From: Gnetum montanum
Lineage: Eukaryota > Plantae > Gnetophyta
Assembly (NCBI GenBank): GCA_015680685.1
Contig: MNCI01002748.1
Location: forward strand, 5,854 to 69,853
Reading direction: 5' to 3'
DNA: 64,000 nucleotides
Shown here: piece by piece, positions 30,075 through 64,000 of the stretch
Position numbering within the stretch: position 1 is the first letter of the stretch
Layout: each line of letters starts with the position of its first letter
Program-made: the position numbers and the translations under genes
Notes under the pieces: generated by a model
What the model was told of the DNA's origin: nothing
Databases searched by the model: none
The model's input: only the letters and a program-made list of their open reading frames with translations

Positions 30075-30234
30075 CACCCCCACGACTGTGTGAAAACTCA
30101 CCCTTGAGTTTATTACAATTTGGAAGGTACGAAGTTATTACAACACACATGACAAGACATATCTTGATAGACACTAACTTTATTAACATACCAAGTGCCT
30201 GGGTGTATGGAAAAGGATGAATTACAAAATGGTG

Positions 30235-41417: not shown

Positions 41418-41582
41418 TCTGGATGTTAGATAATCTACTAAACTGGTGTGCCTTATTCTTTACTTAAACAGCTTAGCATGTGTAGATTTCACTATCCTGG
41501 GTCTGTTCCAACGAAGTGAATGATAATCTTGCTAAGACTAGATAGCGCATATAAGACTAATAGTCCTCGACAATGGCGCCAA

Positions 41583-42463
41583 TGATGAGTAGTGAGGTAC
41601 CCCTACGCCCAACCATACAAATCACGGGCATTCACATGTGACTCGATCAAATTCTGTAGACTATAAGCACTTGCATACACCAAACTCTAACTAGCAAAAT
41701 CGTATGTTAGAACAGTCGTTGTCTTCCCAACCTTACTTGTGATGTTCTAATGTGATGGTTAAGTGAGATTGAGGCAAATGATTTTTATTGGTTTTCTTTT
41801 TATCTTCTAACATCTAATTCTTGAAATGTAAGAAATGAAATGTTGTGTAATCTATAATTGTTCTACTCTATCTCTTAACTCTCCCTAGCATAAGGAACCG
41901 ATCCCATCTTCCATGCACATCTTGAGCATCCCCTAACCACTGCTGGATTACTAGGCATTAAGCGTCACTGGGTTGCCAAGTGTTGGGTTTATGTTCGAGA
42001 TGGTCGTACTTATGGTTCTTACAAAATATAAAAGAGCAATAATGGTAAAGTGATAACAATGAAGACTTAAAAAATTATTAAAGTGTTGGAATATTAAACT
42101 ATTTAAATGCTTAAATAATTAAATCCAAATGCTACAAGGAATGCTTAAAAATCTCGTCTTTATTGCCGGTCACGCCAATGGGCTTAGGTACATTAGTGCT
42201 CAAATAAAGAGTCGTACACCTTTCTCACACCTGCTGCGAGCACTTGGAAAATATTCTAACTCTTACGGGAACAAACTGCAAGAGTTTTGTTAGGACTACT
42301 CAAAAATATGCCTAAGTGCAGTAGGTGACCATTTATTGATAGCTAAAGACAGAATCTACGTAAATGAGGCCTAGTCGATGCATGGATGGATGCGTCAACG
42401 CGACCGCGTCGACGGGGCTCCGTTGACGCGGCCCAGTCGACGCATTGACTAAATACTTCATCA
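41583..42463 (-). repeat. 5' LTR of element B
   Basis: Adjacent to the PBS. Retains a CG-rich GTCGAC motif cluster at ~42360-42450. Confidence 0.93.
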
Positions 42464-42929: not shown

Positions 42930-45185
42930 TGTTACACAAATGTTTTCAAAGTAGAGGTGAGCTGGGCAACATTGAAGCTAGTATAGCTAAAGGATGATCA
43001 GACAGTGGTTAGAGTAACTTCATGGCCTACAAGGAAGTAAAGGTAGGTAAGTGGAAACCAAAGATGGAGAAAGTTAGCAAAGATCCAACTATGCAACACA
43101 TGTACCATAGGCTATATGAGGTTGACACTAGGTGAAAGAGCTAAGACAAAGGAGAAGCTTAAAGTCTACGAGTCATTGTGAAGAAAGTTAAAAAGGTTAG
43201 TTTCAAAGTAGGATATATTACCTAAGGATTGCATAGTGGCAAGGGGGATCACATTGAAATTGTCAAGAATGATATATGATGTAGCATCAACAATGCGAAG
43301 CAAGACCTCCTCCTTAAAGATAGTCCTACCATTATTAGTCAATGGGACATGAACCATCATGAGGTGAATTTGGTTCCAAGAGGTAGAAATGAACATTTGT
43401 TCTATATAGAAGTTATGAAGGTGAATTAAGGAACACCAACAAAGGCCCAAGCTGGAATAATGCTTATTCATGTAGCTAGTAAAGTGGAGTCATTGTCAAG
43501 GTAGGTAATGTAGGGAACTTCATCATTTGGTTTTTTGCATGCATAAAATATGATTTTTATTAGTAGAAGTAAAATCAAGTATCTATTATGGTTAGCAAGG
43601 GCCATTGAGCCTCCCACATTCCATGAGGCAACATTCATTACAAGAGATCAAGGTTCGCGTAGTTGTGTAGTACACCATTTGGCATTGTTTGGCTTGGGAT
43701 TTCTTGTTGTTATCCAAAATTTGACATGATGACTAGAGCTAGTAGAGGCAAAATCTCAAGGATTTGATGAATATGGCATATTCTATGACCTTGGTTCATA
43801 GGAGTGTTTCTTGCTAGACTCACAAATTTTAATGTCCATGATGGTAGTCTTAGAAGTGGGCGTAGTAAGTGCAATGTCCATGGGAATGAAGTTTGTGAGC
43901 AATCCATCCCCTATGAGGCATGAAGTATGAGGTGTGTTTGTTGGTAGTGAAGCAATGTTAGACCCTAGGGATGCATGTGGGTTGGTATGAGAGGGAGGGT
44001 GGACAAGATTGCTCAAGAGAGAAAGGTTTTGGGTTTGGGCATGATTCAAGAGGATGGGGGGAAGGGGCCAAGCAGGGATGCGGAAGGCAGGGAGGTTAGT
44101 AGTGTTGTATGGCAGTGAGGAATGAGGATGGGAGCTATGAATTATATGAGTGGGTGGGGATAATTAAGGGTGATGAATTGGAAGAGTTGTGTGACATTGA
44201 GGGAGAGGAAAAGGTTGTTAGCAAGGTAGAAGATGTGGCTATGGTGGATGGAGCTATGGTCAATGAGTTACATGGTGTCGAAGTTGATGTTTTTTGTTGA
44301 CAAGTTTGGGGACGATTGTTAGCAGTAGCCTCAAGACACTACTTGGCAATGTGACTTTGTTGTAGCTAAATTCAGTAGTTGTTTAGAAAATTTTCAAATT
44401 CAATGAGTTGCTAATTAACACCAAAAGGGCCATCAAGATAGATCTTCAAGTGGAGGTTAGTTGTGAGTGGCATGTATATGCACTACTTGGCATCAATCAA
44501 TTGAGTTTTATTAGTGATGGCATTGTCAAAGGCAATGACCTTGCCAAACTCAAAGTAATAGCAAAGATTTCATGAACCCTGAACTCAATGGAGAATCCTT
44601 GAAGATTAATGTAGGTATTGGTGAGTGTTGTTGTGCCCATTCCCAAGCTTAGGGATCCATTTTTCCAATATAGTAGCTAATTATCAAACAATTGTGGATC
44701 CATGAAGAGCAACTCATTCATCACACTATTTGAATCAAAGGAAAAGAGGGTCCTATTACCTTTGAAGGGGGTGATTATTATGCCAATTGTGTGTGGGCCC
44801 ATTGGCATTTAAGAGATGAGACATGAATGATGAAGGTGTTGATAAGGATGTGTTAGTGTCATTGTGTTTGATGCTTAATAATGTCTAATGGTGAGCTTGT
44901 CAATTGAGGGTTCTTTGTAAAAGTGAGGACTAGGGTGGAAAACTGTGTCCTTTGGGGACACATGGGGCATTGAGGCATGGGAAGCCACCCTAGAGACTAT
45001 TGAACAAATGACTAGTACAATGGTTGAGCAAATCAATAGTTGACAAGCTAAAATCTCATTGAGGGAAGGTGGCATCCTGTGGGAAATCAAGGTTTGGAGA
45101 GTAGAGGAAGTAGAGGTAGTAGCGAACATGAGAGTGAGGAGGGGTGAACTAACAAAAGTTGACCAATGAAGAATGCAAGCCCACA
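42930..45185 (-). mobile_element. decayed L1-type LINE: ORF1 remnant and the start of the ORF2 endonuclease, 3'-truncated
   Basis: ORF2 start MNVASWNVG at 43638 and a GDFN-like ILDNFNVI near 43260. Upstream ORF1 remnants resemble DUF4283 plus a zinc knuckle (FSFDSNSVMNELLFMDPQLF, GKVIAFD) with a Pro/Ser-rich tail. Confidence 0.7.
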
Positions 45186-45289
45186 AAATAATTTTAGTAT
45201 CAGTGTTGTTATTGTAATACTTGGACTTATGATATCATTTTGACCTAATGCTTAATATGATTTTGCTTTGGCTTTCAAATGTTTTTAAA

Positions 45290-46600
45290 AGAAAATCACC
45301 TTGGCAGTAAAACTTTAAAAGAGGAAGGTCATGCGTTACTAAGACATGCTGCAAAGTCTCCCATCGCAACACTGCTACAAGCCGTTTAACACGTAGAAGT
45401 CGTAGCAGCTGCGGAAGAGAGACGCCACTACCAGACAAGAAAGTCTTACATGCTTACAATGTGTCCAAACGAACTTTCTTATTTTCTTTCGAACTTACCC
45501 ACCTTCTGCAACTCTCCCTCCATCTTTGCAATCGGAGGTCTAGTATCCGTTTCTAAATTTTCGATGTGAGGGCATTCTTTGGAGAACGAAACAGCTAGTG
45601 CATTATAGGGATCTCGTTGAAGCATCTTTTTGCTGGCCTGTGATTTGGCTTTGGAACATAAGGCATGGGCAAGAACAAGAAGAAGAAGCAGAATGCCAAT
45701 ACTAACACCAACGCGATCCAGAAACAAACAGACGATGCTGTTTCTGTTTCGTCCGTGTCGTCCGTCAAAGATATGCAAAATGACATGGCCAATGCCGAGC
45801 TCTTGCTGCCCGCAGAGACCGACGGAGCTCTACAGGCCAACGCTAAATGCGAAAACGGAATACATGTGAGGTTTTTTTTAACTCAGTTATGCTCGTGAAT
45901 TGTTTGTTTGTTTGTTTCTTTTTTTCTTTTTAAATTTTCTTGCGCGTAGATATTGTTGCTCAAGAAATATACAAAAAAGAATTTTGTGCATTCATTGCGT
46001 GGATCTGGCTTTAATCAACGATATGCATACATTTTGTCATGACCGAAATATTGCTGCTACTTCTAAGTTTCGCTTGAATGCCTCTTTTTTAAATTGTATT
46101 CATTGAAATATTGCTTTTCGGTTAAGCATACGGCTAATTGTTGGCAGAATCGTAAGCATGCTTTATTTGATGTCAAGAGATGGCAATTCGAATCTCAAAA
46201 TGTTCGATTGTTTTGAATCTTACGCGGTATTAATATTGAAACGACTATTTTCGCCTTCAAACTGCATATTATTTGACACCTTTGCCTTGCCATCAATAAC
46301 TACAGGGAATTACTTGTACGAAGATCCATGAATTCTCTGGAAGAAGCAATAGTTTTTTCGCAATCATAAATATAATGATAATAAAAGAGGAATGATAAAG
46401 GTTATTTTTACAATCCGTTTCTGCACATAGTAGTCGCAAGACGGAGCAACTAATTGTTGAACTCCGTTGATGAAAAGTTCCAAAATATTTGTAAAAGCAA
46501 GACTAATGATTGATGATTTTCCCGGAAGACACGTTTCGTTTCAGATTTGTATCAACGGCATTACTGGTATGCATGAAGTATGAGGTAGTGTGATTAGTGT
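45290..46600 (+). promoter_or_regulatory. CG-retaining (likely unmethylated) promoter, first exon and 5' intron region of the host gene
   Basis: CG dinucleotides are frequent here and scarce in the flanking TE and intron DNA. The region spans the ATG at 45665. Confidence 0.55.
45665..45865 (+). CDS. exon 1, 67 aa, MGKNKKKKQN...KCENGIH
   Basis: ATG in a CG-rich region; donor CAT/GTGAGG followed by T-rich intron sequence; 201 nt, phase 0. Confidence 0.8.
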
Positions 46601-49600
46601 TCTCACAGACCGGTTCTGAGTATTGAAATATGTTTTCATTAATAATTACACCATAAGATATTTGTGATCATATGACATTTATCCAAATTATGGATTATGA
46701 TAATTTATTTTGAACTTTCACTCTGTAACAAAGCAGTGAAACGTATATGGTAGAATGTATATAGTAGAATTGTCTTCATGTGTTTGTTCACACAGCTTAG
46801 TGCTTAAGGAATTGATTTTCTTGCATAGATACCCATGTTTGGCTTACCGTACTCTTATGGTTACCTCTTGTATGTTAAGTGTATAGAGGTTCTACACTCA
46901 ACTTGCTGGGCGCATATGTAAGACATGGGATAGGCAGTGGGAAACTATGGTTGCTGTTTGGACTGCACACTAGGTCATCTTAAATTATTGAAATTGTCTT
47001 GTGGAAGATTCATCGTTGTCTGTACACAGTGCCTTGGTCTCCTGTTGACCCAATCAAGCTATAGATTGTGCATTGCTTTTAGCTGTATTTTGAGTGGACA
47101 GTGTACTAAATTTAAGGAGCATATTTAGAGTGTAACAACATCTACAACAGCAATTAAGATAACACTAAAACATTAGGACTTTATCATTTTAATGAAAAAC
47201 CTAATTTCTCATGTGCCATTAAAGTAAAAGCAGCCCCAACCATAACATATAATGTAGAAACGTACATGAGATTAAGTGAACAAATACAGATTAAATATAT
47301 TTGTCTTTACATCTACATTCCCGATAAAAATTGGCTATTTGAATATCACATTTACAACTAGGTTTTCCTGCTTTCCATGCCATTACAAATAGACTAGTTT
47401 AACTATATAGTTACAATATATATCTATAAATTTCTTGAGAGAATCTTTTCCCTTAAAAAAAATAATCTGAAGATATATTCTAAAAAATGTGTATGATATA
47501 AGATGAAAAATTTGAGAAGTATTATTTAGCATTACGTTATCCACCTTGTAGAAGATTATGGATGAAATATACTTTTACATTAGATATTCAGGGCATTATA
47601 GGGTTATGGATGAAATATAATTTAACGTTACAGGAATGGGGCCTCTAGAGCATTATGAACAAAAGATAATTTAGCTTTACAAGATTATGATGGGTAGTTG
47701 GCCTTCTTACCAAAGAAAATGAATTAAAGTGAAATAATATCAGTTGATTGAAAAAAGATTTGAAAGCATTAAAACATGACATGCTTCATCAAACATTTTC
47801 CTAGTTCTTGAAAGGTCAGATCTTCATTTCAAATTTATAAACACAAAATGTAGCATGTGACTACTCAGTAAAGTGTGAACAAAATCAAGAGGGGTTTTGA
47901 GTTAGTTTGCTGCATGAGTTAGCCCAAATGAAATATTTCATACATGAGTCATGAATCAAATGTTATTATGAAGTAACAAATAGTTCCCATTACATTCTTA
48001 CCTATTTTTACATTATAAATCCTCTCTTTCCGTACTTCATTTTTACCAGTATACCTACTAATTTTTTAATCAGAACTATACATGCTTTTTGCTAGTAAAT
48101 TGTCATACAAACTGTATTGTGTTTGCCTGACCATGTACTCTAGGAGAATGGGTAGCTTAAATGATTACAACATAATTGAACCATAATTGTTTTCTAGGGT
48201 TAAATAAGAATGCTGCATTTGTATTGGAGGAACTTTCATTGTAATCTTAGATGCTCAGATTGGTACTATGGTTATATGGGTTATAATTTAATGGGCTTCT
48301 TTAGCTCTTGATACACTCTTATTGATTTTGTACACTACAATAATATTATTTTAATAGTTGAAAAGACTTTGCATTCATATTACATATAAAAACATTTATA
48401 GAATGATCATTTCGAGGACAAGGAAATTTTAAGGTTCCAACTTTTTCCTGTCTTCAGATTAAACTTCAAGAGGAACTCAAAGAGCTGCAAAACAAGATTC
48501 TTTGTCTTGAGTCAAAGGTACACAAGCTTTTTAAACAGAATAATACTCCTTTTAAAACAGAATGATACTCCATATATAATAACCATATACTTGTTTTGCA
48601 TGGTACTTCAAGATGGATGTTTGTCCATTGTATCACAGTACATCATATAAATGAACGATTTTTTTCATTGGTGCTAATTGTTTATTGTCTGCTGAATAAT
48701 TTTTGCAGCCTAACGTTCAAGAAGAACTCAGAGATATGCAAAAGAAGATTTCTGTTCTAGAAGCAAAGGTATGATTAGTTCTGCCATAAGACAGAAACAT
48801 TAAGCAAACATGATATTATTGGAGTATATTTGGATACGCAATATTTTAGCTCACACATGTGTCTTGATAAAGAAAATTGTTTTTATTTCCTAGGGAAATG
48901 TATGTCATGTCCAACAAATTATGAAGAGATTAAATGGCCATGATGCTTAAATAAACCAGCCATCTACAAGGGGAATATAATGGAGAATATAATATAGAAA
49001 CAACAAAGAATATGTGCTAGAAGTTGGTGCATCTGGATGTTAGTAGCAGTGATACAATTTCTGTTTTTTTCTGATTCTAACGAACATGCCAAAATGTTGT
49101 TTCATAAAAGGAATAGTTGCTCTCTTGGCACATATTTGTCCTTCCATTTGAATGCCAAGTCTTCCAGATAATCATAACAGTAAAATAGGTTTAGGAAAGG
49201 ACCTATTTGGTTAGAAACATTTTAAACTGTACCAAAGTTAAAAACCTCTGCTAAATTGGTCTGACAAAGTTTGGTGTATTTAGAAGAATTTTACAGCATG
49301 CCAAGCAACTTTGGGAATCATATCTATATTTAGTTCATACCTAAAACTTAATTCATGGGCTATTAATCTACTCAACATGCCAAATACGATCATAACATTT
49401 GACAACTGGACAGCTGCTATATGTAGAAAGTAGAAACTGTTAACAACTATTGTTCAATGCTCTACCCACACGAAGACAAATGTACATAAAGTCAAAATAT
49501 TTTTATTTATTTTTCAGTTTATGGGCAGATGTAAACTATTTTGGCCCCAACTCACTTTTATTCTGCATAAATTTCTTTATTTTCACTATGGGGAATGGCT

Positions 49601-52600
49601 TCTCAAGTTCCCCAAGTATAGCCCCAATCATTTCCTATAAATTGTAAGGCCATACACGAATGAAATGACCAATTTTGAAGGAAATAAAGTTGACATTCAA
49701 TTTTTTTTGTAATTTAATGTTTTTTCATATTCCCTTCTTCTTTCATTTACACATCTATCACTAGTATCAACTTCCATTCTCAATTATTAATTCAATGTCA
49801 TCAGTCATCAGTGCAACCAAATTATTAAGCAACCATTATATTAAATGCATTATCAAGATTTCTATAACTCATTGTCTCACAGTCTAGAATTTTAAACATT
49901 TCTGAATTATGACATCTAGAAGATCAAGAGTCAAAGCTACATAAGTCAACAATTTAAGGAGAAGTTTTTAACAAAATTGGTATTGGAGTCAGTCATCATG
50001 AGCTTCAACAAGGAAATAGCCAAATGTCCCATTGTCTTCAATGGGACCCAAGATTTCATTCTTTGGAAAGAAATGATGAGATGACTTCTAAAAGTTAATG
50101 AAGTATGGGATGTGATAGAACCTGTAGAAGCCCATATCACAATAACCCCAGAAGGAGACAATAAAGACAAAAAAGATCCTCTGATTCAAGAACTCTTAGA
50201 AGAAGAAAAGTGGAAGAGAAAAAATTCACATGCAAGAATGATCATTATTTTCAATGTATCAGAAAAAATAGTTGGAAGATTGTTCTCATCAAAGACTGTT
50301 AAAGAAGTGTGTGAAAGATTATGCTCTGATTAACTAAGCAACACCAAAAATCAACATACAAAAGAACTGTTGTGCAAAATTCAATTTGACAAATTAGAAA
50401 TAAGAAGAGATGAAGACATTGAAGAGTTTTTTTATAAAGATGTACACTAGTATAAAAAACATTGATGAATTTGGATGTGGCTTTACTCAACACCATACAG
50501 TACAGAAAATTGTGGCAGCTCTTCACAGTTATCCTAGATACCAAAACATAATGATGAACTTTCTACAAAATAAAGAATTAAAGCAACCTGCTGTGGATGA
50601 TCTAGTTGCTTAAATCAGAACACTTGAAAGTTTGAGAACTGACAAAAATGATAAAGAACAAATCTTCACAGCCAATAGAGGAAGAGGAAGATTAAATAGA
50701 GGAAGAGAAAGATTCAATATAAGTTATTCTCAGGACCAAAACAACTTAGACAAGTTAGAGACTTTACAAAGAGATAACAGAGGTAGAGCTTTCATAAAAG
50801 GAAGTAGGAACTCACAAGGACAAAGAAATGCCTAGATCCCTCTATGCAAACTTTGTAATTAAAGAGGCCATACCATAGAAGTATGTTGGTACAACTCTGG
50901 ACTTGATGCTCTTCAACTCCAAGACAAAGATGAAGGAGCAATTACATCAAATCAAGAAAATCACCAAGGTAAGATCAAAGCTCTCAATTCCAGCAAAATA
51001 ATTAAGTAAAATTTTTGGATTATAGATAATAAATGCTTAAATCACATGACACCATACAAGTCTCACCTTCTTCAATACAAATAAAAAAGAATTGTAAGCA
51101 TAAAGATAGGAGATGTTAACCACTTTAACATAGAAGGAGTTGGAAACTGCATCATCAAATTACCAAACAACAAGGTTAGGGCCATCACTAATGTCTTTTA
51201 TGTACTAGATCTCTCAAATCTTCTTATCTCAATAGGACAAATGGTCAAGAAAGGAGTCAAAATCAGGTTCAAAGATGGCTGGTGCATTATTAAAATTCAA
51301 AACAATGAAGAAATCATTAGAACAAAAGCCTACAACAACAGAATCTATTGCATAGGTTGCAGTCACTTTGATCTAAGAGGAAACCTCATCCAAGATAATA
51401 ACTAAACTGTCGTTCAGGTTACTACTTTAGAAAAAGGAACACACAAAGATCCATATCAAAGCATTTCCAAACATCAAACAACAAATGAAGAAGAAGCCAA
51501 AATTTGGCAGAAAAGATTAGGACACACCTTTTACAACAAACTAGAAGAAATGACGAAGTTAAAGAAAGCAATAGGAATTCAAATCAGAGATGCTCCAAAG
51601 AAAAATGTGAAATATGCATCCAGAAAAGCAAATCAACAGTCCTCACACAACAACTATGCAAAGAAAAGAAAGCCCTTTTGATCTTCTCCACATGGATTTC
51701 ATTGGACCTATGCCTATCACCTCGATAGGAGGAGCTAATTATACACTTGTCATGGTAGATGATTTCTCAAGATATACCTAGACATACAATGTGAAGAGCA
51801 AGGTTGAGGCAATAATCAAATTCAGGGACTTCTACACTATCTTGAAAAACACAATGGGCCTGTCCATCAAAGCCATCAGATCAAATAGAGGGGAGAGTTT
51901 ATCAATCAAGAATTCAAAGATTTTTGTACACATCAAGGCATTTTTCATCAAATCACATGTGGATATAGTCCACAATCAAATGGCATTGTAGAAAGGAAAA
52001 ATAGAACTTTGCAAGACATGGTGATATGTCTTCTTAAAAATGCTTAAATCTCTAAACAATTTTTGAAGCATGGCCATGAATGTAGCAACCTACATTACTA
52101 ATAGAATAATCAATAGTAGCAACAAAGATAAGTCCCCCTACGGACTCATCTACAGAAAACTTCCAAATATAAAACACATGAGAACATTTGGATGTCATTG
52201 TTATGTCAAAATTCTAAAGCAATTCAGAAATAAATTGGACAGCAGAGGAAAGAAATGCAATTTTTAAGGATATGGCATCAAGACAAGTGGATACACTTGC
52301 TATGATCCCGTAGACAAAGAATGGCACTTATCTAGAGATGTGGTTTTCATGGAAAATAAATTTGGTGTGAAAGATTTTCAAAATTCAAATGATAGGACAA
52401 AAGTACAAAACAATCCCAAACCATGGGTACAAAAAAATCACCCTCAAGAACAAATGTTGGACAATAACTTTGAGAGAAGAACAACTAGATCTAATGCCAT
52501 TAGCAACATAGCATACTCAGCTCTCTCTCTTGAACCAAAGAATGTAGAAGAAACCTTGAGAACAAATATATAGAAAGAAGCTACAGACAAAGAATATGAA

Positions 52601-55600
52601 GCCGTCATGAAAAATGAAAAACAAAACATGGGAATTAGTGGACAGACCAAAAGGAGAAGACCAAATTTAATGAAAAAGGAGAAGTCATCAAACATAAAGC
52701 AAGACTAGTTGTAAGGGGGTTCAAACAAAAGAAGCACATAGACTATGAAGAGATTTTTGCTCCAATAGCAAGATTTGAAACCATCAAACTCATTCTCTGA
52801 ATTGCTGCTCATCACAAACTCAAATTACATCAGCTGGATGTAAACTCAGTTTTCCTAAATGACAATATCAATGAAGAAGTGTATGTTTATCAACCAGAAG
52901 GATACACTATCAAAGGTAAGGAAGATTAAGTCTACAAATTAAAGAAAGCTTTATATGGCCTAAAACAACTCCAAGAGCTTGGCTCCATAGAATCAATGAC
53001 CATTTTCTACAAAAGGGTACTCATCTTGCATGTTTGAACCAAAACTATACTATAAACATGATTCAAGGACTTCATAATAATCTCTCTCTATGTAGATGAT
53101 CTCATTTTCATAGTCACAAATGATGAACTTACAGAGGACTTCAAGACAAACATGAAGAATGAATTTGGAGTGAAAGACCTAGGATAGTTGAAGTATTTTC
53201 TTGGATTACAAGTTGACCAAGTTAAGGAGGGAATCGAAATTCATCAAACAAAATATGCAAGAACCATTTTAGAAAAGTACAAAATTAGCAAAGAGAAAAA
53301 CCCCAATACTCCTTTTCCTTACAACAAAAATCTAAAGAACAAAGACAACACTGCCATAGTTGATGCCACTTTGTATAGAAGCATGATTGGAGCACTTAGA
53401 TTTCTTTGTCACACCAGACCAGACCTGGAATTTGCCATCTCTCTTCTATCAAGATTCATGCAAGAACCTAGATAGTCTCATCTCAATGCTCTCATCTATA
53501 TACTCAGATATGTAAAAGGCACAACAGATCATGGAATCAATTACACCAAAGGAGATGGACAATTTCATGCTTATTCAAATGCTGACTGGGGAGGAGACCA
53601 TGATGATAGAAAATCTACATCAAGATCAATAATATTTCATTGAAATAATGCAATACATTGGAAGTAAAAAAAACAAAAAAAAAACAAACATCAATTAGTC
53701 TTTCAACTTATGAAGTAGAGTTTATTGCCATGATAGAATGTACTCAACACATCTTGTGGCTGAAGAATCTCATGAATCATCTTGGTTTTCACATAGAACT
53801 CCCCATCAACTTATATTGCGACAACACTTCAACTGTACAACTCTTAGATGAAAATGTTCTTCACAAAAAATCAAAGCACATTGATATAAAATATTATTTT
53901 ATCAAGCAATAAGTAAAGGAGGGAAAAATCAAACCATTACATGTGAATACTAATAAATAATTGTTAGACTTACTCAGCAAACCTCTTCTTCATTACAGGC
54001 ATGAGCACCTTTGCAATAATATAGGCATCAAGACAATAAGGAAGGAAGACAGAAAACATTGCCCTCTAAAGGAGGGACTGTTAACTAGTGTCCAATTCTC
54101 TACTCATATGAAGACAAATCTACATCAAGTCAAAGTATTTTTATTTATTTTTCAGTTGATGTGCATATGTAAACTATTTTGGCCCCCAACTCACCTTATG
54201 TTTGCATAAAAGTTTTTATTTTTACTATGGGGAATCACTTCTCAAGTTCTCCAAGTGTGGCCCTAATCATTTCCTATAAATTATAAGGCCATATATGAAT
54301 GAAACGACCAGTTTTGAAGGCAATAAAGTTGACATTTGATTTTCTTTGCAATTTAATGATTTTTCATATTTTTTTCTTCTCATTTACACATCTATCACTA
54401 GTCTCAATTTCCATTCTCAATTATCAATTCATTGTCACAGTGCAACTAAATTATTACACAACCATCATATTAAATGCATTATCAAGATTTCTATAACTCA
54501 TTTTCTCACACTCTAGAAATCCAAACATTCCAGAATTATCACATTTGGAAGATCAAGAGTCAAAACTAGATAAGTCAACAATTCAAGAAGAAGTTTTTAA
54601 CAGAAACCACTTTTCATTTTTTGATTTTTTTTGGGTTGATTTTAAGGAAGATTCACTTCCTTATACTACCAGTAGCTTGTCTTGTGTGAAAACTTGAAAA
54701 CAACTCAACATATGCTTGAAATTTTAAAAAATAACCACATTAGGTTTTGAAATTTCAAGTCTTGGAACTGTTTACTTAAAAATTTCATAAAATTGTTTTA
54801 ATATCTCTGTACTTCCCTTAAATCTTCATCAAACATACAAAAAAGTGAAATCATGGCACCATGTTGACTGAGGGCTTATTTTAACTTTATGAATAATGAA
54901 TTGATTATAATTTGAAGAAAAAGCTGTATGCAAGTCCATTATAGTGAAAAATTTAAAGTAAATATTCGAGCTGGTGGCAAATCTTTCCTGATTTTTATTT
55001 GGTTTGTCATGATAAAGAAAACCTCTTGCTGAAACATTAAGTTAGTAGACTTCTTTCCTATATCTTCGGCATAAGTAAGAAACTAAGAATAGAATTCTAA
55101 TGAACTGTTTTGTGAAAGGATTCTGAGACGTATAACTCTTAGTTTCTTGAAGTTATAGTGTTGTATGAGCTTGTTTAGAAGATTTATGCTTCTAATCAGC
55201 ACCATAATTCTGTCATCAGATGCTATCAAATCCTTGTTGCATCGGTTATTAATAATATCAACCGAATGGTTTGTTTTGACAATATGAAACCTTGCTTGTT
55301 TGTGATACTAAATCTTGATACTTGAACTGCTGTTGCAGCCTAATATTGAAGATGATGTGAGAGAGCTGGGAAACAAAATTTCTGATCTTCAGAGAGTGGT
55401 ACTATACTTTTGCATTATGAGTAATTGATTACAGATTGGAAGCTATTGAGGCATAATAATTAAATGTATTTAGATATGCAAATTTACTATTCCAGATGTA
55501 AATCTTTATAGAACTAAACACATACGTATTCTCTTGGTAAGATAGCATGTTGAGTCTTTTGACCACACTTTGAAAAATAAATTCAGTCCAAAATTTCCAG

Positions 55601-58600
55601 GTTTCAATGAAGCAAAAAATTCATTTAAGGATGAAAATTTTCTTAGAATTTTCAAGTCATCGATAACATCCAAAGTCCCTAGACAAAGGTTTTCTTTTTT
55701 CATTTAAATTTTGAATTAGGAAACGTTTATAGATTTTGAACATGGAACATCTTTTATAGGCTTTTCATGTCTGCACTATGTATAAAATGCTTTTTCTCTA
55801 GTACACCTACGATGCATTTCAACCTAACCTAGAAACAATGTAAAATGCTTAGATTGTAAATGTTAGTAAAAAATAAGAGTTACTGCCTGCTATTTCCTTG
55901 AATTATATCTTTTGTTTGCCAATTAGAAAGTATCTCTTTTATGTACACGAGCATTAGCCAGCTTCACATCTTTAATAGGCTTAATTAATGCTTTCACATT
56001 CCAATTGTGTCATTGATAAGTTTCTATTTTTCTGAGAGATATTTATATGTTTAATATTTTATGTCTTGTAATTAGAGTATGCACTTTTGTCACTGGCATG
56101 CATCTGGTCTAACGAACGCACAGTTCTGGCTTGTTCCTCTTTTAATAAAATCTCACCTACACTGATTTGTAAATGTGTTTATGTTGGTTAGCAATACTTT
56201 GTGTGGTTGCTTTTGAATACATAATATTTATTCTTAACTTGCATTATCTTGCAGATGAATCTTCAAGAGGAAGTCAGAAACCTGACAAGCAGGGTTTCAC
56301 ATTTCGAGACAAAGGTTCTATAGTTTACCATATGGCATAATGTTTAAAATGGATTAAAAAATAAATTCAGTGTCATACAAGTCTTGTTTTGAATTTGTCA
56401 CATGAGATTCTGAACACGTTAAGATGTGTCAGAAGCTTTTTCTTTTTGTAAAGGAATCCATAGAGAAAACCGTTGTTTGAATTTCCTTTGTGGTAGGGGC
56501 CTTTGTTCAACATTAAGATATCCTCATGTGATAGATGGTGAATGCTGCTTATCTGAAACATAATCTGAGTTAAAAAGATTTTTATACAATTGAATTGGAA
56601 TTGCTGCAACGGCCTCTAGTTCATGTACTACATGAACTAAGTTTTAGTTGCTATTTTTTAATGTTGCTATGCAATTCCTCTTATGTTGCAGTGAAGCATA
56701 CATATGAAAAAATTTGGAACCCTTATCCCTGAGAGTAAATCAGTTCATTTTAGATCGCTAACTCCATAGAAAAAATTGAAGCCCTTATCCCTCGAAAGTA
56801 AGCCAGTTCATTTTAGATCTCTAACTCTGGAGCTATCTTTCCTGATGTTGAATGCCATTTCTTGAAGACAGTTCATTTTGTTTTTGACCAATGCTGTGTT
56901 CAACCTTCCTTATACAAATGTATCTGGGCTTTTTCAATGTTCTGTAAACACCGATGTTTCCTCTGCTTTCAGTTTGAAATATTATATTGCATCCAAGTAA
57001 GGATCTTCTGTTTTAAATTTAATATTTTTTTGCAAATTCCTGTATTGAGGAGTACCCTACACATTGAGTTGTCCTTGCTGTTCTACAATCTGGTGTACAT
57101 TTGAAAAACCATGCCAGTACAGCTTCCGTTTGAAAATAGGCATTGGTTATTGTAATTCCTTTGTCTACTCAAGTAGAGGCCAATGATAAGAAGAGGCCAT
57201 AGTTAGTCTTTGAGCTTTTGCCAAGGAAATAAATCAAGCTGGTATCTGTCACCATAATGTGATTTAACTTGTTGATACAATCTTTGTTATGCCTCAAGTT
57301 TTTTCAAGTATACTCCCCTTGAAACACAGGAAGATCCACAAGCCCCAAGCTATAAATTGCCATTGAAAAATTCTCATTACCTGCGTTCCAAATTCTTTCA
57401 CCCCAGTTTTCTTAGAAGGAGGTAAAATGGTATTAAAATCTCCCAAAACATAAGAGGGGTTTACTAATAAGAGTGCAAAGATTAGGAAAATTTTGTCAGA
57501 ATGCTTTCTTTTCCTATAACCTCATTATACCAAAAACATTAGTAAGCATTCATTTCTCATCTATCTCAATAGCTATCGTGTTTGCATTTTATAAAAGCAG
57601 ACATATCTTGATATGTGAATGGCAAACTATCCAAATTTTGCCAAATCAATTTTGGGCTGCTTGGAAGGCACCATCCGAACAGACCCAGCAGGGTCAACAT
57701 GTGCCATCAAACAAACCAGCCACCCTCGTTAGAGATTCCAACCCACTCCAAGACAAGGTCCTAAGAGCTGTCCAAATGCAATCATGCATAAGCAAGAAAG
57801 CCCTACAGCTCAGCCACGAAAGCCTCAAACCCCAAACCCCAACCCCTAGACTCCTTAAGCAATATAAGACATGCCATAGCGACAAAGTAGCCCAACACTA
57901 GACCCTAAGCCAGCGAGTCACCGAACAATTGCTGCGGCTTCCCCTTAAGGATTCCCATGCCATCCCTATGCAGAGACTCCTCCCATACTTGACCCTTTGT
58001 CATGCGTTGCAATGTTTCTTCTGCATGCTGCTGCGCTTTTTGCTCTAGTTTGGCGTGGATATGGACCTGCAACTTGTTGCTCATGATTTGCTTTTGCATC
58101 TCCTCCCAGTGTATCCAGTTTTTGTGAGCCTCAACCTACAACTCTTCTCTCTATCATGTCGCCAGATACGCCATCCTTCGCAAGTCAGCTTCCTGTGCCT
58201 CCCATCGAGCCTCCCACTCCGCCTTTTCCTCCTCCCATGCTTGTGCAGCTGCCTCCTTGTTGGCTCTCCGCACAAGAGCCTCGATCTCAAGTTGCCTGGA
58301 AGACATATCCCACCTCACCAAAAAGGTTTTTTTACATACAATAATACTTTCTTCTTCTTTAAGCTTTGTCTCCTAAATGCACATTATATTAGAATTTTCA
58401 GAACACCAGCAATGTCGAATAGTGTCCTAATGTGAAAGGTTGTTTCCCAATAGCTTCAAAACACATACGTGTACTATGTGGAGGCTGCTTGTAATTAACT
58501 CTCAGCCAAGTACTTTGGCCAATATTTACTGGTCATAGCTTACCCAATGGGTGAGGTATCAATGGTGTAGGTGCTACCTTTGCTATTGGAATTGGAAAAT

Positions 58601-61600
58601 CATCCCACTCTCTCTCTGATCCAAAACATGTTTGAATGTCTCAAATTGGGGTTGGATCCTTTGCATAATACTCCTCATCATTCATCTGGTGAGGCTTGGG
58701 AATCGATCTCTTAGCCCTCTTCTTCTTTGGCTGCAAGTGCAAGACATGAGGACCATGCCACTTTGCTTATAAAGCGACCATTCCTTTGACAGTTCTTGGT
58801 TTAACATTGAAAATTCCATAGATGATTGGACAACCTCCAAAACGGCAAGTAACCCAGCTACACAAAACATTCTTCACTTCCTTAGCTATAAATAGCTGAT
58901 CTGACTATCCAACCACAGAATTGTGAATGTGCATTGTAGATCTGCATTAATGTCTTCTCCAAAAAGATCCGCATCAAGAGTTTGGTTGTAGAGCCTTCAG
59001 ATATGGCACACATATTACAACCCTGGATGAAAGACTAAACCCCTCAATGAAGGACCAAACTCTCACCTGCAAACCCATTCTGATCTCCTCTGCATTGATA
59101 TTATGTTAGTTACTAAAGCTGGCTGTTCTGCAATATAGGTATACCCCAAAATATATAACTCAGTATTGCCCACCAGAATTGAACCCATGACTTGGAGCTT
59201 CCAAATGAAGATTCTGAACAATATTTTTAATATACCATATAATAGTATATAGTCATTCTTAATATACTTTTTCTTGTGGCCCAAACTTCAGGAGAAGCAA
59301 TAGAACTTAAGATATTTGGTTTCTGATTTTGAGGCAGAAAGTTCAGGAATATTAGTAAGGCATTTGTAATGGACAGAGTTCCATTATTTATAACGATAAG
59401 GGTTTGTAGGCTTCTAGGAAAGCCTACATCGTTGTTTGTCTACTCTGATGTTTCTGATAAACGTGCTGTAAGAATACACTTATGTATAGAATTGTTAGAA
59501 ACCCATGAATCTAGTCGTATTACTATGACTTTGTTATTTGAGGATATTGAAAGTTGATTGTTAAAATTGCCTTCTGCTGCAGCCCAACCTTGAAGAGGAA
59601 GTTAGAGAACTCAGAAATAAAATTACCCAGCTTGAGATGCAGGTACAAGAATTAACACATATTGTAGTGGGCGATATTCCATATTTTTTTTTGCAATGCT
59701 GTTCTTTATTACAATGGACATTCATTTGAAAGTCTCTGCCACATTGTATTTCTGGCATCTGCTTTGTGATTTTTAGCACATATTATGTTTTATACAATGA
59801 CAGAATTGCAGAGTGTTAGAAAGCCTGAACTAGAAATTTATAGGAAATGATTAGTTTGAGGATGGTTAGGATACTGATTATTAATTCTGAACTTGGTTTC
59901 TTTCGCAGCCCAACCTTCAAGAGGAAGTCAAAGAGCTTAGAAATAAGAATTTTTTGCTTGAGGTGAAGGTAAAATGTTACAAATTTATTTGCCATGAAAA
60001 TATAAATGTTAATCTAGTAAAAGAATAATAAAAATAGAGGATCTGCTCTTTCTTTTAATATCAGTTTTAATAGAGTTCTGTATATCTTACCATAGCTAAC
60101 AGAAATCAGCTAGGGCTATCTGTCATATGATAATTTGTTTTATTCATTATGTTTTTGTTCCAGGGGATCGACTCTTACAGCATTACAGTTTATAATTACT
60201 TTCTGTAAATGTATTTAGTTATAATAAAGTTTCCCTGTGCTAATTCTTCTTTCTCTAATTTTAATTCTTATTTTTCTTTTAGATTAATCTTAAAGAGGAG
60301 GAAACAAAAGAGCTGAGAGACGTTATTTCTCGTCTTCCAAAAGCGGTACTTGAATTTCTAACATTCACAAGTAACATCAATCAAAGGAAATTGAAAAATA
60401 AATTTTAAATGTATTGTATTTTTGTGTTATCAAAGTTTCAATTTGTTTGTTCAATGTTGGAGATCAATTCTAGCTTGTCTGACTGATTAGTGAAGGGGAT
60501 GTTTGCCATTCTTTTTTTGATGCTTACAATTCAAGATTCTAACTAAACAAGGTTGGAAACGCGGGGAGGAATCAGTGAGGCATAACTTGTTTTGTAGGAC
60601 TACTGTCTTGCATCCCACAAGTCACATCTTTAGTTTCAACAGTTTACAGTGAGATGTAAATAGTGTCTGAAGTAGAAAATGCAGAAATTGAAGTTTTTCC
60701 AATAAATTGAATGGGCCTTCTTAGAGAAATAATAAACATTCTTTAATTTCTTTTTGAAAAAGTTCAGGAAGTATATTAATATAAAAATAACTGTACCAAA
60801 AATGGTCTGAAGGCCCTACACACCTGATTTTAGCCAACCACCCTCACAAGCAAAATCGGGTGAAGTCAACCCCCACCAACAACATCATGCTGGCTTGAAA
60901 AAGATGACAAAACCTCAAAAGGATGAAATAGGAAACAAAAAGCCAGAACTAGCACAACCAAACATGAAGTCAAAACATAGCAAACCGGCCACACAACCAA
61001 AGAGCATCACCCTTATAAACAGGTGGGAAGGCCAGAGCACTCAAAGTATGCCCTCTCCTCCTCATGGATAATATCTAGCGTATTCCTATGACATTCTGAA
61101 TCCACAAAATGAGCTACCTCCTAGAAATTTTTGAACTCCTCGGCTTTCCTCCGGCATTCCTCCTCCATGCCCTTACCATCCAAATGCAAATCTTTGCTGC
61201 TATGCTTGATGTGGTGCCGGAGTGCATGCCACGAAGTGCTACGCCCTATGTTCATAATAATGCAAGGGCACTGTCCCTGCCTTAGCCAAGCCTTGGCCTT
61301 TAGCACATGAGCTTGATCCAACCATTGTTCGATCATGGCTGCCTCCTGTTCCTCCTGCGCACATCTATCTTGATCTTCCTTTTCCTGGAGCTCTTGTAGG
61401 CGCACCTCCTCTTGGATTTGTGCCCATAGACCCTCCCACAGCTCCCTCTCTAGGGCTTCCCTAGCAGCCACCTTTGCCAAATCCCTCCTTCACTGCTCCT
61501 CTAGGTCCTGTTCCTATCACAGGTGCTCGACCTCTTCTTGTTGATGCAGAAAATCGATCTTGCGCTTAGCCAACATTGCCTGCCACCACTCCCGCTCCTC

Positions 61601-63106
61601 TGATCTGGCCTGCCTAACTGTCGCCTCCACCCCTTTGTTGAAAAAAGACCTTCGTGCATGCTGCCTCTTCCAATTGGCACCAAATTGCAGCCTCATGCTC
61701 ATCCCATCTTTTCTGCCAAAAAGCCCTTTCCTCTTGGCATGCCTGCAGTGCCGCTGCCTCAATCTCCCCCACTATCCTAGCATCCTGGCTTAGAATGGCA
61801 ATAGAGCCCAAACCTCCTGGCACACCATCAGAACCACCTCTCCCAGCTGAAACTTTCTAACTATAACATGTTCTTTTCAGTCAAAATCATCATTTGTTTT
61901 GAATGGATGGGTACTTTGTATTCCATATAATAACATAATACAAAATACAAATACTAGAGGGTCTTCTCTGGCCTCTGTTTCCTTTCATATATAGGAAGAA
62001 AAGTAATAGATTGGGCTTCTTGGCTCCTCCACTATTTTATCTTTGTAAACACAAACTTGTGTTGTACAGATTTTCTCTACATATAATGCAGCTTCATGAT
62101 GCCTTCACTATTGTTTGTTTGGAGCACACCCATGTTAGCTTGTTCTATTCACCCTATTGTAATTTGTGTACAGTGCATGCATGATTATCAGTGTTTTAAT
62201 GACCATTTTACTTAGTTTATTTGTCTACTCTAGTAATATGACCTAGGTGCTGAAGCTGATGTTTCTAATGATTGAATATTCGTTTGTTTCTGTGCATATT
62301 TCTGAGCATATTAATAGATTTCTCTCTTATCTGTGTTTGCAACTTCCTGGTGGTTTTGTATATCACTTTGATGTTTATGCTTTTTGTTTTCTTGTTGTCT
62401 ATGCATGTGTTTTATGGGCATCTCCTGTCAATTGCTTTGTGCTCCTCTCAATGAAACTAAAGCTTCTTTATCACATCCTAGAACTTAATGATCTAGTGGA
62501 CTAACTTGGGCAGTCTCATCTTGGATCAATAGAGACACAATCCTTTGAGGGCAAGCATGCAGAACATGTTCAAAATAACCAAAGCTCGTCAGTAATATTG
62601 ATGAGGTGATATCTTCATAAATTAAATGCCATGAAAACTATCAACTTACTTAAAATAGAAAATGAATTGAACATCAAATATTCTCTCAAGAAGTTCTTTC
62701 CCTATATCTTTTTCTTGACTTAGAACACTAGACTCTTTCTTCATATCTGTACCACAAATGCTGACATCTCAAATAGGCTACATGAGGTGATTTATTCCGG
62801 GATATTTCTAAAAATTTTTAACTTTTAGGGTAATGTGTGGATTTAGTGTATTGAAGTTTGCATCCACCTTTACATTTCTAAGTGATATTGAAGTTTGCCA
62901 GTTTCTAAAGAAAAGTATAGTTAATTTAGCTGCATACTGAAGTCTATCCTTTTATTCCAAAGTCTCTACTCTATAAAAATTATTATTTTTTGTTAGCTGA
63001 GTGATTTCTGCTGTCTCAAAATTTTATCTTAATGATTTTTAACCTGGTTCTTCTGCAGGAGGAAGTTAATGGCTTACAATTTACAATTGCTGATCTTCAG
63101 ACAAAG
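45665..63106 (+). CDS. spliced host gene, 3'-incomplete: basic N-terminus plus tandem 20-aa coiled-coil modules. Exons 45665-45865, 48458-48517, 48709-48768, 55339-55398, 56255-56314, 59583-59642, 59909-59968, 60283-60345, 63059-63106
   Basis: All nine exons have canonical GT/AG boundaries and all introns are phase 0. The joined frame is open (224 aa). Exons 2-9 are mutually homologous. No stop codon is reached in the window. Confidence 0.85.
48458..48517 (+). CDS. repeat exon 2, IKLQEELKELQNKILCLESK
   Basis: tcttcag/ATT...AAG/gtacac, 60 nt. Confidence 0.88.
48709..48768 (+). CDS. repeat exon 3, PNVQEELRDMQKKISVLEAK
   Basis: ttttgcag/CCT...AAG/gtatga, 60 nt. Confidence 0.9.
49438..49973 (+). 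repeat. 5' LTR of the Copia element
   Basis: Direct repeat of 54079-54602. Confidence 0.93.
54079..54602 (+). repeat. 3' LTR of the Copia element
   Basis: Direct repeat of 49438-49973, preceded by the PPT. Confidence 0.93.
55339..55398 (+). CDS. repeat exon 4, PNIEDDVRELGNKISDLQRV
   Basis: tgttgcag/CCT...GTG/gtacta, 60 nt. Confidence 0.87.
56255..56314 (+). CDS. repeat exon 5, MNLQEEVRNLTSRVSHFETK
   Basis: atcttgcag/ATG...AAG/gttcta, 60 nt. Confidence 0.85.
56707..56830. repeat. ~63-bp tandem duplication (2 copies) in intron 5
   Basis: AAAATTTGGAACCCTTATCCCT...CAGTTCATTTTAGATCGCTAACTC is repeated at ~56707 and ~56771. Confidence 0.8.
57100..59290 (-). mobile_element. cluster of decayed L1-type LINE fragments in intron 5
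   Basis: Minus-strand endonuclease-like remnants SLGLVDLPVFQGEYT*KN (~57300-57350) and SNIMCI*ETKLKEE (~58350-58395). RT-tail-like remnants YIFWGIPI (~59140) and HWVSYDQ*ILAKVLG (~58510-58550). An E/W-rich insert lies at ~57510-58320. Confidence 0.6.
59583..59642 (+). CDS. repeat exon 6, PNLEEEVRELRNKITQLEMQ
   Basis: ctgctgcag/CCC...CAG/gtacaa, 60 nt. Confidence 0.9.
59909..59968 (+). CDS. repeat exon 7, PNLQEEVKELRNKNFLLEVK
   Basis: tttcgcag/CCC...AAG/gtaaaa, 60 nt. Confidence 0.9.
60283..60345 (+). CDS. repeat exon 8, INLKEEETKELRDVISRLPKA
   Basis: Long pyrimidine tract, ttttag/ATT...GCG/gtactt, 63 nt (one extra Glu codon). Confidence 0.83.
60745..61860 (-). mobile_element. 5'-truncated retroposed (LINE-like) fragment with an E/R/W-rich helical ORF remnant and 3' UTR
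   Basis: GC-richer island with ORFs 61121-61480 and 61614-61823. The minus-strand end ...TAATATACTTCC...TTCAAAAAGAAA resembles a plant L1 3' end. Loose flanking direct repeat TAAACATTCTTT / TAACATGTTCTTT. Confidence 0.5.
63059..63106 (+). CDS. repeat exon 9 (5'-shortened), EEVNGLQFTIADLQTK
   Basis: ttcttctgcag/GAG...AAG/gtacct, 48 nt, aligning to positions 5-20 of the module. Confidence 0.8.
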
Positions 63107-63469
63107 GTACCTAAATCCTTGTAAAATAACATAGACTACGTCTTCAGTGTTACATAGACAACTAAATATAGGGGGTGATTTGTGATCCGCTTAATTTATT
63201 TGAAATGTACTTTCAAATACTTATCTAAATGCTGAAGAAACTGGTGTGGTCAAGATGGCAAGCAGTGATCAAAAAGTTAGGGAAAAAGGTATTCTTCAGC
63301 AGCCTAGGAAAAAGCCTTAATTTATTTAAAAATGAAAAGGTCGGAAAAAGAGTCAGTAATAAAAAAAACCTGAGAAATATTTATATTTTTAGTTTCTATT
63401 TCATTCAGATATTAAAAAAAAGATCTTGAAATTATAAAAAATTTTAAAAGCATTTAAAGTAAATTAACT

Positions 63470-64000
63470 AGTTAATATAAATGACGGGACATACATATCA
63501 ACACGAAAGAAACTATCTATATTCTATAAAGAATCACAAATAATCAATAACTCTATATTGACTACAGAAGACATCATTATCTTACAAAAGCTTCCTCCAG
63601 CTTTGCATATTTCCAGACAATCATAATGACGTAAAATTTGAAGAATAAGAAAATCATAGATTCATTGTGTTAGACCTTGGTTAAGGTTGACAGTGCTCAA
63701 TCATTCTTTTTGTAAAGTAGTTAAGTGAAGAGACAAAAGTTTTAAACCAAAATGTCATGTCCTCCTACGACGTATGTAAGACGTAAGTGAGATGTTACAG
63801 AAAGTGTATGAAGAGATATAAAGAAATATGTGGAATCGTATTCTGAGGGATGGTACTTTAGTACTTGAGTTGACAAAGAAAAGATCTAAATAGATTGTAA
63901 ACATGAGAAGCACAAGCTAGTAGGGAGTAAGGCAAGGGGCACAAAGTGAAGAACAAAGGAACTTAGGAGGAGATAAGTTCATAAGGAACGTACTTGATGG
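63470..64000 (-). mobile_element. possible highly decayed L1 ORF1/endonuclease junction fragment
   Basis: Purine-rich + strand like the L1 at 42.9-45.2 kb, with weak endonuclease-like remnants (YDFLILQ, RVDMYVPS). Confidence 0.25.

What the first reader, a model, noticed from the sequence alone, without database searches (positions are those of the whole stretch)
48458..63106. Hidden array of symmetric 60-nt exons, each encoding one 20-aa coiled-coil module
Seen: eight homologous mini-exons (60, 60, 60, 60, 60, 60, 63 and 48 nt), all AG/GT-bounded, all phase 0-0 and stop-free. The consensus is (P/I/M)NLQEEVRELRNKISxLExK, and they lie in ~15 kb of TE-filled introns. Hydrophobic positions 3, 7, 10, 14 and 17 are largely kept while flanking introns are not alignable, which argues for purifying selection. 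Established: symmetric exons can be duplicated or skipped without a frameshift. Inference: a rod or tether protein built one exon per module, whose length could be tuned by exon duplication between species or exon skipping between tissues (a splice-tunable molecular ruler).
Basis: partly seen in the sequence, partly recalled or inferred. Interest (0 to 1): 0.75.

Follow-up and report, generated by a model that had tools for sequence, protein, structure and literature searches.

The report
Jointed coiled-coil built exon by exon
A gene of no recognised family, probably from a gymnosperm, splices eight tiny look-alike exons into one messenger RNA that encodes a row of short predicted zipper helices broken by proline kinks, likely a flexible tether that grew by exon copying, and the RNA examined shows no exon skipping that would tune its length.

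Summary
The eight mini-exons are real and expressed. Public RNA joins an overlooked first exon (ATG 45665) to module 1 and then every module to the next at GT..AG, in runs labelled as five closely related organisms. The transcript is about 1.3 kb, and only 365-399 nt follow module 8, outside the window. No skipping joint was listed. The raw-read depth excludes only frequent skipping (about 30-40% or more) of modules 4-7, in two samples. The 20-residue module is 7+7+6, not whole heptads: a 2.5-heptad zipper stripe (37 of 39 core residues hydrophobic) with a Pro/Ile/Met-Asn break at the exon junction, so a jointed rod is predicted rather than a smooth one. A probable dead ninth copy and a shortened eighth suggest that copy number changes in evolution. 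Selection on reading frame and splice sites is strong; selection on amino acids is weak (pN/pS 0.69, interval 0.48-1.03). No homologue was found, but the databases barely hold this lineage. Verdict: a real, apparently orphan repeat gene with a known kind of architecture (as in chicken BG tails); the splice-tunable ruler is not supported.

The parts
45358..45865 (+). Exon 1: 5' UTR (RNA contigs start at 45358-45432) and 67 codons from ATG 45665; Lys-rich start, otherwise polar and likely disordered; phase-0 donor
   Evidence: joint 45865>48458 GT..AG in 4 of 4 runs; an in-frame stop lies 6 nt before the ATG (context)
45450..45569 (+). Upstream ORF of 39 codons in the 5' UTR, out of frame with the main ORF; function untested
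48458..48517 (+). Module exon 1 (60 nt, phase 0-0)
48709..48768 (+). Module exon 2 (60 nt)
   Evidence: loose ends behind it are the start of module 3 in 4 of 4 runs
49438..54602 (+). Full-length decayed copia LTR retrotransposon in intron m2-m3 (LTRs 49438-49973 and 54079-54602, 5-bp target duplication, LTR K2P distance 0.13); a passenger, spliced out
55339..55398 (+). Module exon 3 (60 nt)
56255..56314 (+). Module exon 4 (60 nt); non-consensus donor context (GTTCTA) yet included
59280..59340 (+). Probable decayed ninth module: no AG acceptor, a stop and indels, skipped by all joints
   Evidence: 14.8 bits, E 0.0013; a chance hit at 8445, far outside the gene, scores 14.7, so probable only; joint 56312>59581
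59583..59642 (+). Module exon 5 (60 nt)
59909..59968 (+). Module exon 6 (60 nt); closest pair with module 5 (77% identical; support 84/89)
60283..60345 (+). Module exon 7 (63 nt, one extra codon)
63059..63106 (+). Module exon 8 (48 nt); acceptor likely slid 12 nt into the ancestral exon, removing the Pro-Asn break; spliced to an exon beyond the window
   Evidence: 63050-63109 still aligns in register; joint and loose end in X2

Best explanation
This is a transcribed gene, probably of a gymnosperm, whose mRNA includes all eight module exons in the RNA examined and encodes a short basic head followed by eight predicted zipper helices broken by Pro/Ile/Met-Asn joints, which likely pair with a second copy of the protein to form a flexible tether of fixed length that grew by exon duplication. 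Shown: the exon chain, the open frame, the hydrophobic stripe, a transcript of about 1.3 kb, and a next exon whose first ten codons continue the heptad of module 8. Inferred: an exon-plus-intron unit of about 250-370 bp was copied repeatedly (module spacings 251, 303, 326 and 374 bp survive where no element inserted); one copy died, one gained a codon and one lost four. Inferred: Val/Ile at a and Leu at d with Lys/Arg(g)-Glu(e) pairs give parallel homodimer segments of 2.5 heptads; the 7+7+6 period cannot stay helical in register, so each exon junction is a hinge. Inferred: the Lys-rich head binds something acidic or acts as a nuclear signal, the unseen C-terminal part (at most about 120-130 residues if the contigs reach the stop) binds or anchors the other end, and the 157-residue array spans up to about 23 nm. 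Length would change over evolutionary time, not from tissue to tissue.
For: Joints m3>m4>m5>m6>m7>m8 are GT..AG in 4 of 4 runs, with 86 raw reads over the five joints in X18 and X19. Exon1>m1>m2 joints and m2>m3 loose ends appear in 4 of 4 runs. X2, X4 and X7 each give one contig of 1304-1344 nt; X2 and X4 have the same 836 nt after exon 1. The core is hydrophobic in 37 of 39 residues; Asn is at position 2 in 6 of 7 and Pro at position 1 in 4 of 7; Lys/Arg13 with Glu18 occurs in 5 of 8. The strongest hydrophobic period is 3.35, not 3.5. With 20% random substitution per copy, all eight keep AG, GT and an open frame in 0 of 20000 trials (single copy 0.245). The best PDB matches to the module profile are stretches of WTAP and dynactin p150, coiled coils from recall, and weak (E 0.013 or worse). 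An insertion of six residues into a heptad breaks the helix locally in trimeric coiled coils (PMC4786415, abstract start and passages).
Against: No protein-level evidence, and no model of the spliced product or of an oligomer could be run. Segments of 2.5 heptads are short and could fold back on each other instead. pN/pS between modules is 0.69 (0.48-1.03), and the 4 coding variants listed in reads are all non-synonymous, one of them at a core position (V>F). The C-terminal part is unseen, so the family and the real function may be set by it. The neutral simulation is conditional on surviving copies, and one copy did die. Tissue coverage is unknown.
Confidence: 0.55

Rival explanations
1. Multivalent binding array or fold-back bundle: each capped helix is a docking unit for a partner, or the helices pack against each other within one chain. 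Exon copying raises valency, and the surface evolves fast, as in defence or conflict proteins.
For: Helix break at every junction and short segments; weak amino-acid constraint and 4 of 4 listed coding variants non-synonymous; no detectable homologue.
Against: The hydrophobic face is a narrow a/d stripe with g-e charge pairs, typical of zippers (pattern recalled). Module 8 and the next exon run on in unbroken heptads (loose end). Variant numbers are tiny, and one search showed only 40 of 288 variant rows.
Confidence: 0.2
2. Splice-tunable molecular ruler: modules are skipped in some tissues or differ in number between species to set a distance.
For: All modules are phase 0-0, so skipping keeps the frame. 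A probable dead copy suggests that number can change in evolution. Module 4 has a weak donor. Skipping at 10-20% would usually be missed (missed with probability 0.82-0.91 at 10%, 0.34-0.55 at 20%).
Against: No skip joint among the 15 joint rows shown (3 more hidden) or the 7. Skipping at 40% would be missed with probability 0.02 or less for modules 4-7. Organisms B and C have the same length after exon 1, and D differs by 34 nt, which is not a module length. Hinged rods make poor rulers (inference).
Confidence: 0.1
3. Alpha/beta coiled coil: a homotrimer in which each exon junction forms a beta-layer, since 20 = two heptads plus a hexad.
For: The register fits the hexad pattern e-f-g/c-b1-b2-b3-e-f-g after a d position, with b1 at module position 1 and Glu (Asp in one) at g (PMC4786415 section 9).
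Against: In that register b2 is Asn and b3 is Leu, where the paper expects a small hydrophobic residue and D/N/T/S, and e is Gln/Glu instead of Lys/Arg. Shifting by one puts Glu at a. The strict RhxxhE trimer motif (PMC5940361 passages) occurs in 1 of 8 modules, with Lys versions in 3 more.
Confidence: 0.07
4. A transcribed but little-translated or decaying gene: the repeats persist under relaxed constraint and the uORF limits translation.
For: 39-codon uORF; pN/pS interval reaches 1.03; non-synonymous variants; no homologue found.
Against: Eight copies only 50-77% identical all keep frame and splice sites; the core pattern is kept; spliced transcripts occur under five organism labels.
Confidence: 0.05

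Closest known systems
Chicken BG genes (butyrophilin family), cytoplasmic tail of 21-nt heptad exons (PMC5938342, passages read)
   Same: [quoted passage not shown]
   Different: The BG unit is one heptad with a split first codon, in an Ig-domain membrane protein, and tail length varies by intron read-through. Here the unit is 20 codons, phase 0-0, non-heptad and Pro/Asn-punctuated; there is no Ig domain, and no length variation was seen.
Tandem exon duplications (PMC9013439, abstract start and passages), e.g. OBSCN exon arrays and mutually exclusive clusters
   Same: Homologous, similar-length exons in tandem, including unused copies inside introns.
   Different: That work concerns animal genes and mutually exclusive choice (0 occurrences of 'plant' or 'coiled' in its text). 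Here all copies are included together.
Alpha/beta coiled coils with beta-layers (PMC4786415, passages and section 9 part 2)
   Same: A six-residue element interrupts heptads at a fixed position after a d layer.
   Different: The sequence rules for b2, b3 and e are not met, and Pro is common at the break; the known cases are homotrimers, mostly viral or bacterial.
LINE-1 ORF1p coiled coil (PMC5940361, passages)
   Same: A positively charged N-terminus, a variable N-terminal region and an irregular coiled coil.
   Different: Analogy only: no sequence match was tested or seen. This gene has introns at each module, and no RRM domain is visible in the part that could be read.
Generic leucine-zipper stretches (Pfam TSC22, GIT_CC, Pox_A_type_inc; PDB WTAP, dynactin p150)
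   Same: Single modules resemble them weakly (Pfam E 0.04-0.08; PDB E 0.013 or worse).
   Different: All Pfam scores are below the curated cut-offs, the PDB matches are single stretches, and no family assignment follows.

Membership tests
Gene built by tandem duplication of a symmetric exon | Homologous exons beyond chance | tested here: met
   leave-one-out E 1.6e-10 or better for 6 of 6; best shuffle 9.0 bits
Gene built by tandem duplication of a symmetric exon | Same phase at both ends, GT-AG sites used in RNA | tested here: met
Gene built by tandem duplication of a symmetric exon | Duplicated unit includes flanking intron | tested here: inconclusive
   2 of 36 upstream and 0 of 36 downstream pairs beat shuffles; only acceptor-proximal similarity remains
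Alternatively spliced or mutually exclusive exon cluster | Skip or exclusive junctions in RNA | tested here: not met
   power limited to about 30-40% skipping for modules 4-7, and 3 joint rows hidden
Canonical continuous heptad coiled coil | Unbroken 7-residue register across modules | tested here: not met
   period 3.35, unit 7+7+6, Pro at 4 of 7 module starts
Segmented coiled coil | a/d hydrophobic stripe within each segment | tested here: met
   37 of 39 core against 9 of 110 other positions
Segmented coiled coil | Oligomerises as parallel helices | not testable with these tools
   the fold tools take only unbroken window stretches of 30 residues or more; each module has 16-21
Alpha/beta coiled coil | Hexad spacing after a d position | tested here: met
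Alpha/beta coiled coil | b2 small hydrophobic, b3 D/N/T/S, e K/R | tested here: not met
Chicken BG / butyrophilin | Ig-V domain, transmembrane exon, 21-nt exons | tested here: not met
   exon 1 joins module 1 directly; no such Pfam hit; exons are 48-63 nt
Any known plant coiled-coil family (golgins, tail-anchored tethers and the like; names recalled) | Sequence homology or a diagnostic C-terminal domain | tested here: inconclusive
   no homologue; C-terminus outside the window; lineage poorly covered

The most novel reading that the evidence does not exclude
A new, lineage-restricted family of plant tether proteins whose unit is a 20-residue 'two heptads plus hexad' module encoded by one exon. 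The exon junction is itself the hinge of a jointed (possibly alpha/beta) fibre, and the number of joints is varied by exon gain and death between lineages and by low-level or tissue-restricted skipping that the sampled RNA was too shallow to show.
Probability: 0.12. Interest if true: 0.7.

Novelty: new variant of a known kind. Interest (0 to 1): 0.38.

Why it matters
It is a clean, RNA-verified case in a plant of a rod-like protein grown one exon at a time, with likely birth, death and trimming of modules visible in one locus, and with a non-heptad unit whose break coincides with the splice junction. Such genes are easy to miss in large, repeat-rich genomes, and this one has no match in the databases searched. 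It offers a simple test bed for how a 7+7+6 repeat folds. It does not, on present evidence, show splice-controlled length tuning, and its cellular job is still inferred.

Tried and rejected
No whole genome is held for the window, so downstream exons and paralogues could not be read. Exon 1 against the 5.8-billion protein set: 0 of 47 candidates at E<=1. Module alignment A2 against the same set: 0 of 2570 candidates at E<=10. A2 against 1.84 billion representatives: 2 hits, a bacterial-type NEAT protein and a catfish myosin-10-like repeat, both rejected as chance. The first row of A2 carried intron-derived flanks and the profile had 54 positions. A control showed that this profile would report the gene's own product and 19-20 of 20 copies mutated at up to 30% of sites, but only 6 of 20 at 40% and 0 of 20 at 50%. 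A gypsy ORF of the window found just 2 proteins, at 33-36% identity, so the lineage is thinly covered. Atlas: nothing for exon 1; only generic coiled-coil clusters for one module. Degenerate module motif in metagenomes: 5 loci, all inside ordinary long ORFs without AG/GT bounds. Rfam: 0 in 44000-64000. One search listed no holder on record as RNA among indexed runs; the laid reads decided the matter. The module tree is unresolved (0 of 6 inner branches starred), so no duplication order is claimed beyond the m5/m6 pair. The sigma-70 scan is irrelevant to a plant gene. An apolipoprotein-like lipid-binding helix and an ESCRT MIM1 motif (both recalled) were considered and set aside: the hydrophobic face is only 5 of 20 positions, and the residue after the last Leu is Glu or Gln in 7 of 8 rather than Lys/Arg. 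Literature: 0 papers for three term sets; the listings showed nothing on this gene by title or abstract start; PMC5100051 gave no relevant passage. Earlier-finding look-ups by sequence and near place were empty. No structure or complex job was run.
Full report
Setting. The window is AT-rich (GC 0.30-0.44 per 2 kb) and largely made of decayed retroelements: copia domains at 51-53.5 kb, integrase at 35.8-36.5 kb and a weak plant Transposase_32 match at 32.4-32.9 kb (8 of 21 ORFs scanned had a Pfam match). A land plant is inferred from this. An earlier unchecked note on the same genome calls it a gymnosperm (e1-10606059); I did not test that. No whole genome is held.

The observation. The eight exons are at 48458-48517, 48709-48768, 55339-55398, 56255-56314, 59583-59642, 59909-59968, 60283-60345 and 63059-63106, each AG/GT-bounded and open in frame 0. 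A repeat finder independently returns seven of them as one 60-nt family at 62-78% identity to the first. Leave-one-out profiles find each of the six 60-nt exons at E 1.6e-10 or better, against a best score of 9.0 bits in 20 shuffled windows. Introns are essentially unalignable beyond the acceptor region (2 of 36 upstream and 0 of 36 downstream pairs beat all 100 shuffles).

The gene model from RNA. Twenty runs were listed and I laid seven, under five organism labels. On 54650-64000, the five joints m3>m4>m5>m6>m7>m8 appear with GT..AG ends in 4 of 4 runs: contigs of X1 and X2, and raw oligo-dT reads of X18 and X19, with 49 and 37 reads over the five joints from about 26% of each run. The contig runs are only guessed to be RNA, but they skip the introns exactly. 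Exon 1 has its ATG at 45665 and gives 67 residues with a Lys-rich start; exon 1 plus the modules make 224 codons without a stop. One contig of 1304-1344 nt carries the gene in each of X2, X4 and X7. After exon 1 come 836 nt in X2 and X4 and 870 nt in X7, which leaves 365 and 399 nt after module 8. The next exon is not in the window. Its first ten codons, seen as a loose end in X2, are open, lack the Pro-Asn start and continue the heptad of module 8. If the contigs reach the stop, the protein has 234 to about 350 residues, so there is no room for a very long further array.

Skipping. None of the 15 joint rows shown (3 more were hidden) or the 7 joins two module exons while omitting one. A joint needs 3 reads to be listed. 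For modules 4-7, skipping would be missed in both raw runs with probability 0.82-0.91 at 10%, 0.06-0.18 at 30% and at most 0.02 at 40%. The raw runs come from one study and two samples, and contigs drop rare forms. So the major isoform includes all eight; minor or tissue-restricted skipping is untested. Module number looks the same in organisms A-E as far as seen: all joints in B and E, m3-m8 in A, exon 1 to the start of m3 plus total length in C and D. Their exons are about 99% identical to the window, so this says little about other genera.

Evolution of the array. Where no element inserted, modules lie 251, 326 and 374 bp apart. A ninth look-alike lies 303 bp before module 5, with no AG, a stop and indels, and all joints skip it. 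It scores 14.8 bits, above all shuffles, but a chance hit at 8445 scores 14.7, so it is only probably a dead copy. Module 7 has one extra codon. Module 8 likely lost four codons when its acceptor moved to an internal CAG, since the 12 nt upstream still align. The tree of modules is unresolved apart from a weak m5/m6 pair. Constraint on frame and splice sites is strong: at 20% random substitution a single copy stays intact in 24.5% of trials and all eight in 0 of 20000 (conditional on survivors). The four coding differences listed between window and reads are all non-synonymous (T>A, K>R, V>F, E>D); one synonymous change shows in an X4 loose end; one search showed only 40 of 288 variant rows.

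The protein. Positions 3, 7, 10, 14 and 17 are hydrophobic in 37 of 39 residues, spaced 4-3-4-3, read as d-a-d-a-d, with Val/Ile at a and Leu at d. Lys/Arg13 and Glu18 co-occur in 5 of 8 modules. From recalled rules this favours parallel dimers. But the unit is 20 = 7+7+6, the strongest period is 3.35, and each module starts with Pro (4 of 7) or Ile/Met, then Asn (6 of 7) with an acid three residues on, a helix-capping pattern (recalled). Six-residue insertions break trimeric coiled coils into beta-layers (PMC4786415; passages and section 9 part 2). The spacing fits, but the residue rules for b2, b3 and e do not, and the strict RhxxhE trimer motif (PMC5940361 passages) is in only 1 of 8 modules. 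I therefore read the product as a jointed chain of 2.5-heptad zippers with a hinge at each exon junction, up to about 23 nm long if extended (0.15 nm per residue, recalled). This is inference: the spliced protein could not be handed to the fold tools.

Relatives. None was found: exon 1, module profile, metagenome motif, Pfam (all below cut-off) and PDB (single generic stretches). The two library hits are chance. The profile search would have caught an eight-module orthologue at 70% identity or more, but mostly not at 60% and not at 50%, and the collection barely holds this lineage. 'Orphan' therefore means no match in these collections.

Comparison. The architecture is known: chicken BG tails are coiled coils built from many 21-nt exons whose number varies (PMC5938342 passages), and tandem exon duplication is widespread in animals (PMC9013439, abstract start and passages). 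Earlier unchecked notes of this scan describe similar arrays in fish; they are leads, not support. I found no paper on this gene or on such a plant array in searches, which cover open-licence papers only. Supplements of plant genome papers, which I did not search, may list the gene model.

Verdict. The best reading is a constitutively spliced, jointed coiled-coil tether that grew by exon duplication (0.55). Rivals are a binding array or fold-back bundle (0.2), the splice-tunable ruler (0.1), an alpha/beta trimer (0.07) and a decaying gene (0.05). It is a new variant of a known kind; interest 0.38.

Noticed in passing
window 49438-54602: Complete but decayed copia element in the gene's sense orientation, with intact TG..CA LTR ends, a 5-bp target duplication and LTRs 13% diverged; spliced out cleanly.
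   Followed up: partly
window 45450-45569: A 39-codon upstream ORF in the 5' UTR, covered by the RNA contigs; may dampen translation.
   Followed up: no
window 45728, 45846, 48715: All three contig runs and most X20 reads differ from the window at these coding sites, each changing an amino acid; the window's genome is a different accession or species from the runs, or has base errors.
   Followed up: partly
window 59152-59215: A 60-nt intronic stretch that collects very many divergent reads and contigs from other loci, i.e. a fragment of a high-copy transcribed repeat, right upstream of the probable dead module.
   Followed up: no
window 62588-62666: An intronic fragment matching a very highly expressed transcript (contig depth about 9850 in X1), perhaps an organellar or abundant-RNA insert; no Rfam match at gathering score.
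   Followed up: no
window 56701-56827: Two-copy 63-bp tandem repeat in intron m4-m5, unrelated to the module (no profile hit).
   Followed up: partly
window 29180-30080 and 41580-42460: Two similar copies of an LTR-like sequence, seen by eye, flanking a minus-strand element with integrase, protease-like and Transposase_32-like ORFs.
   Followed up: no
window 47380-47700: Short repeat-like intronic segment with 48-49-bp periodic copies that attracts divergent reads on both strands.
   Followed up: no
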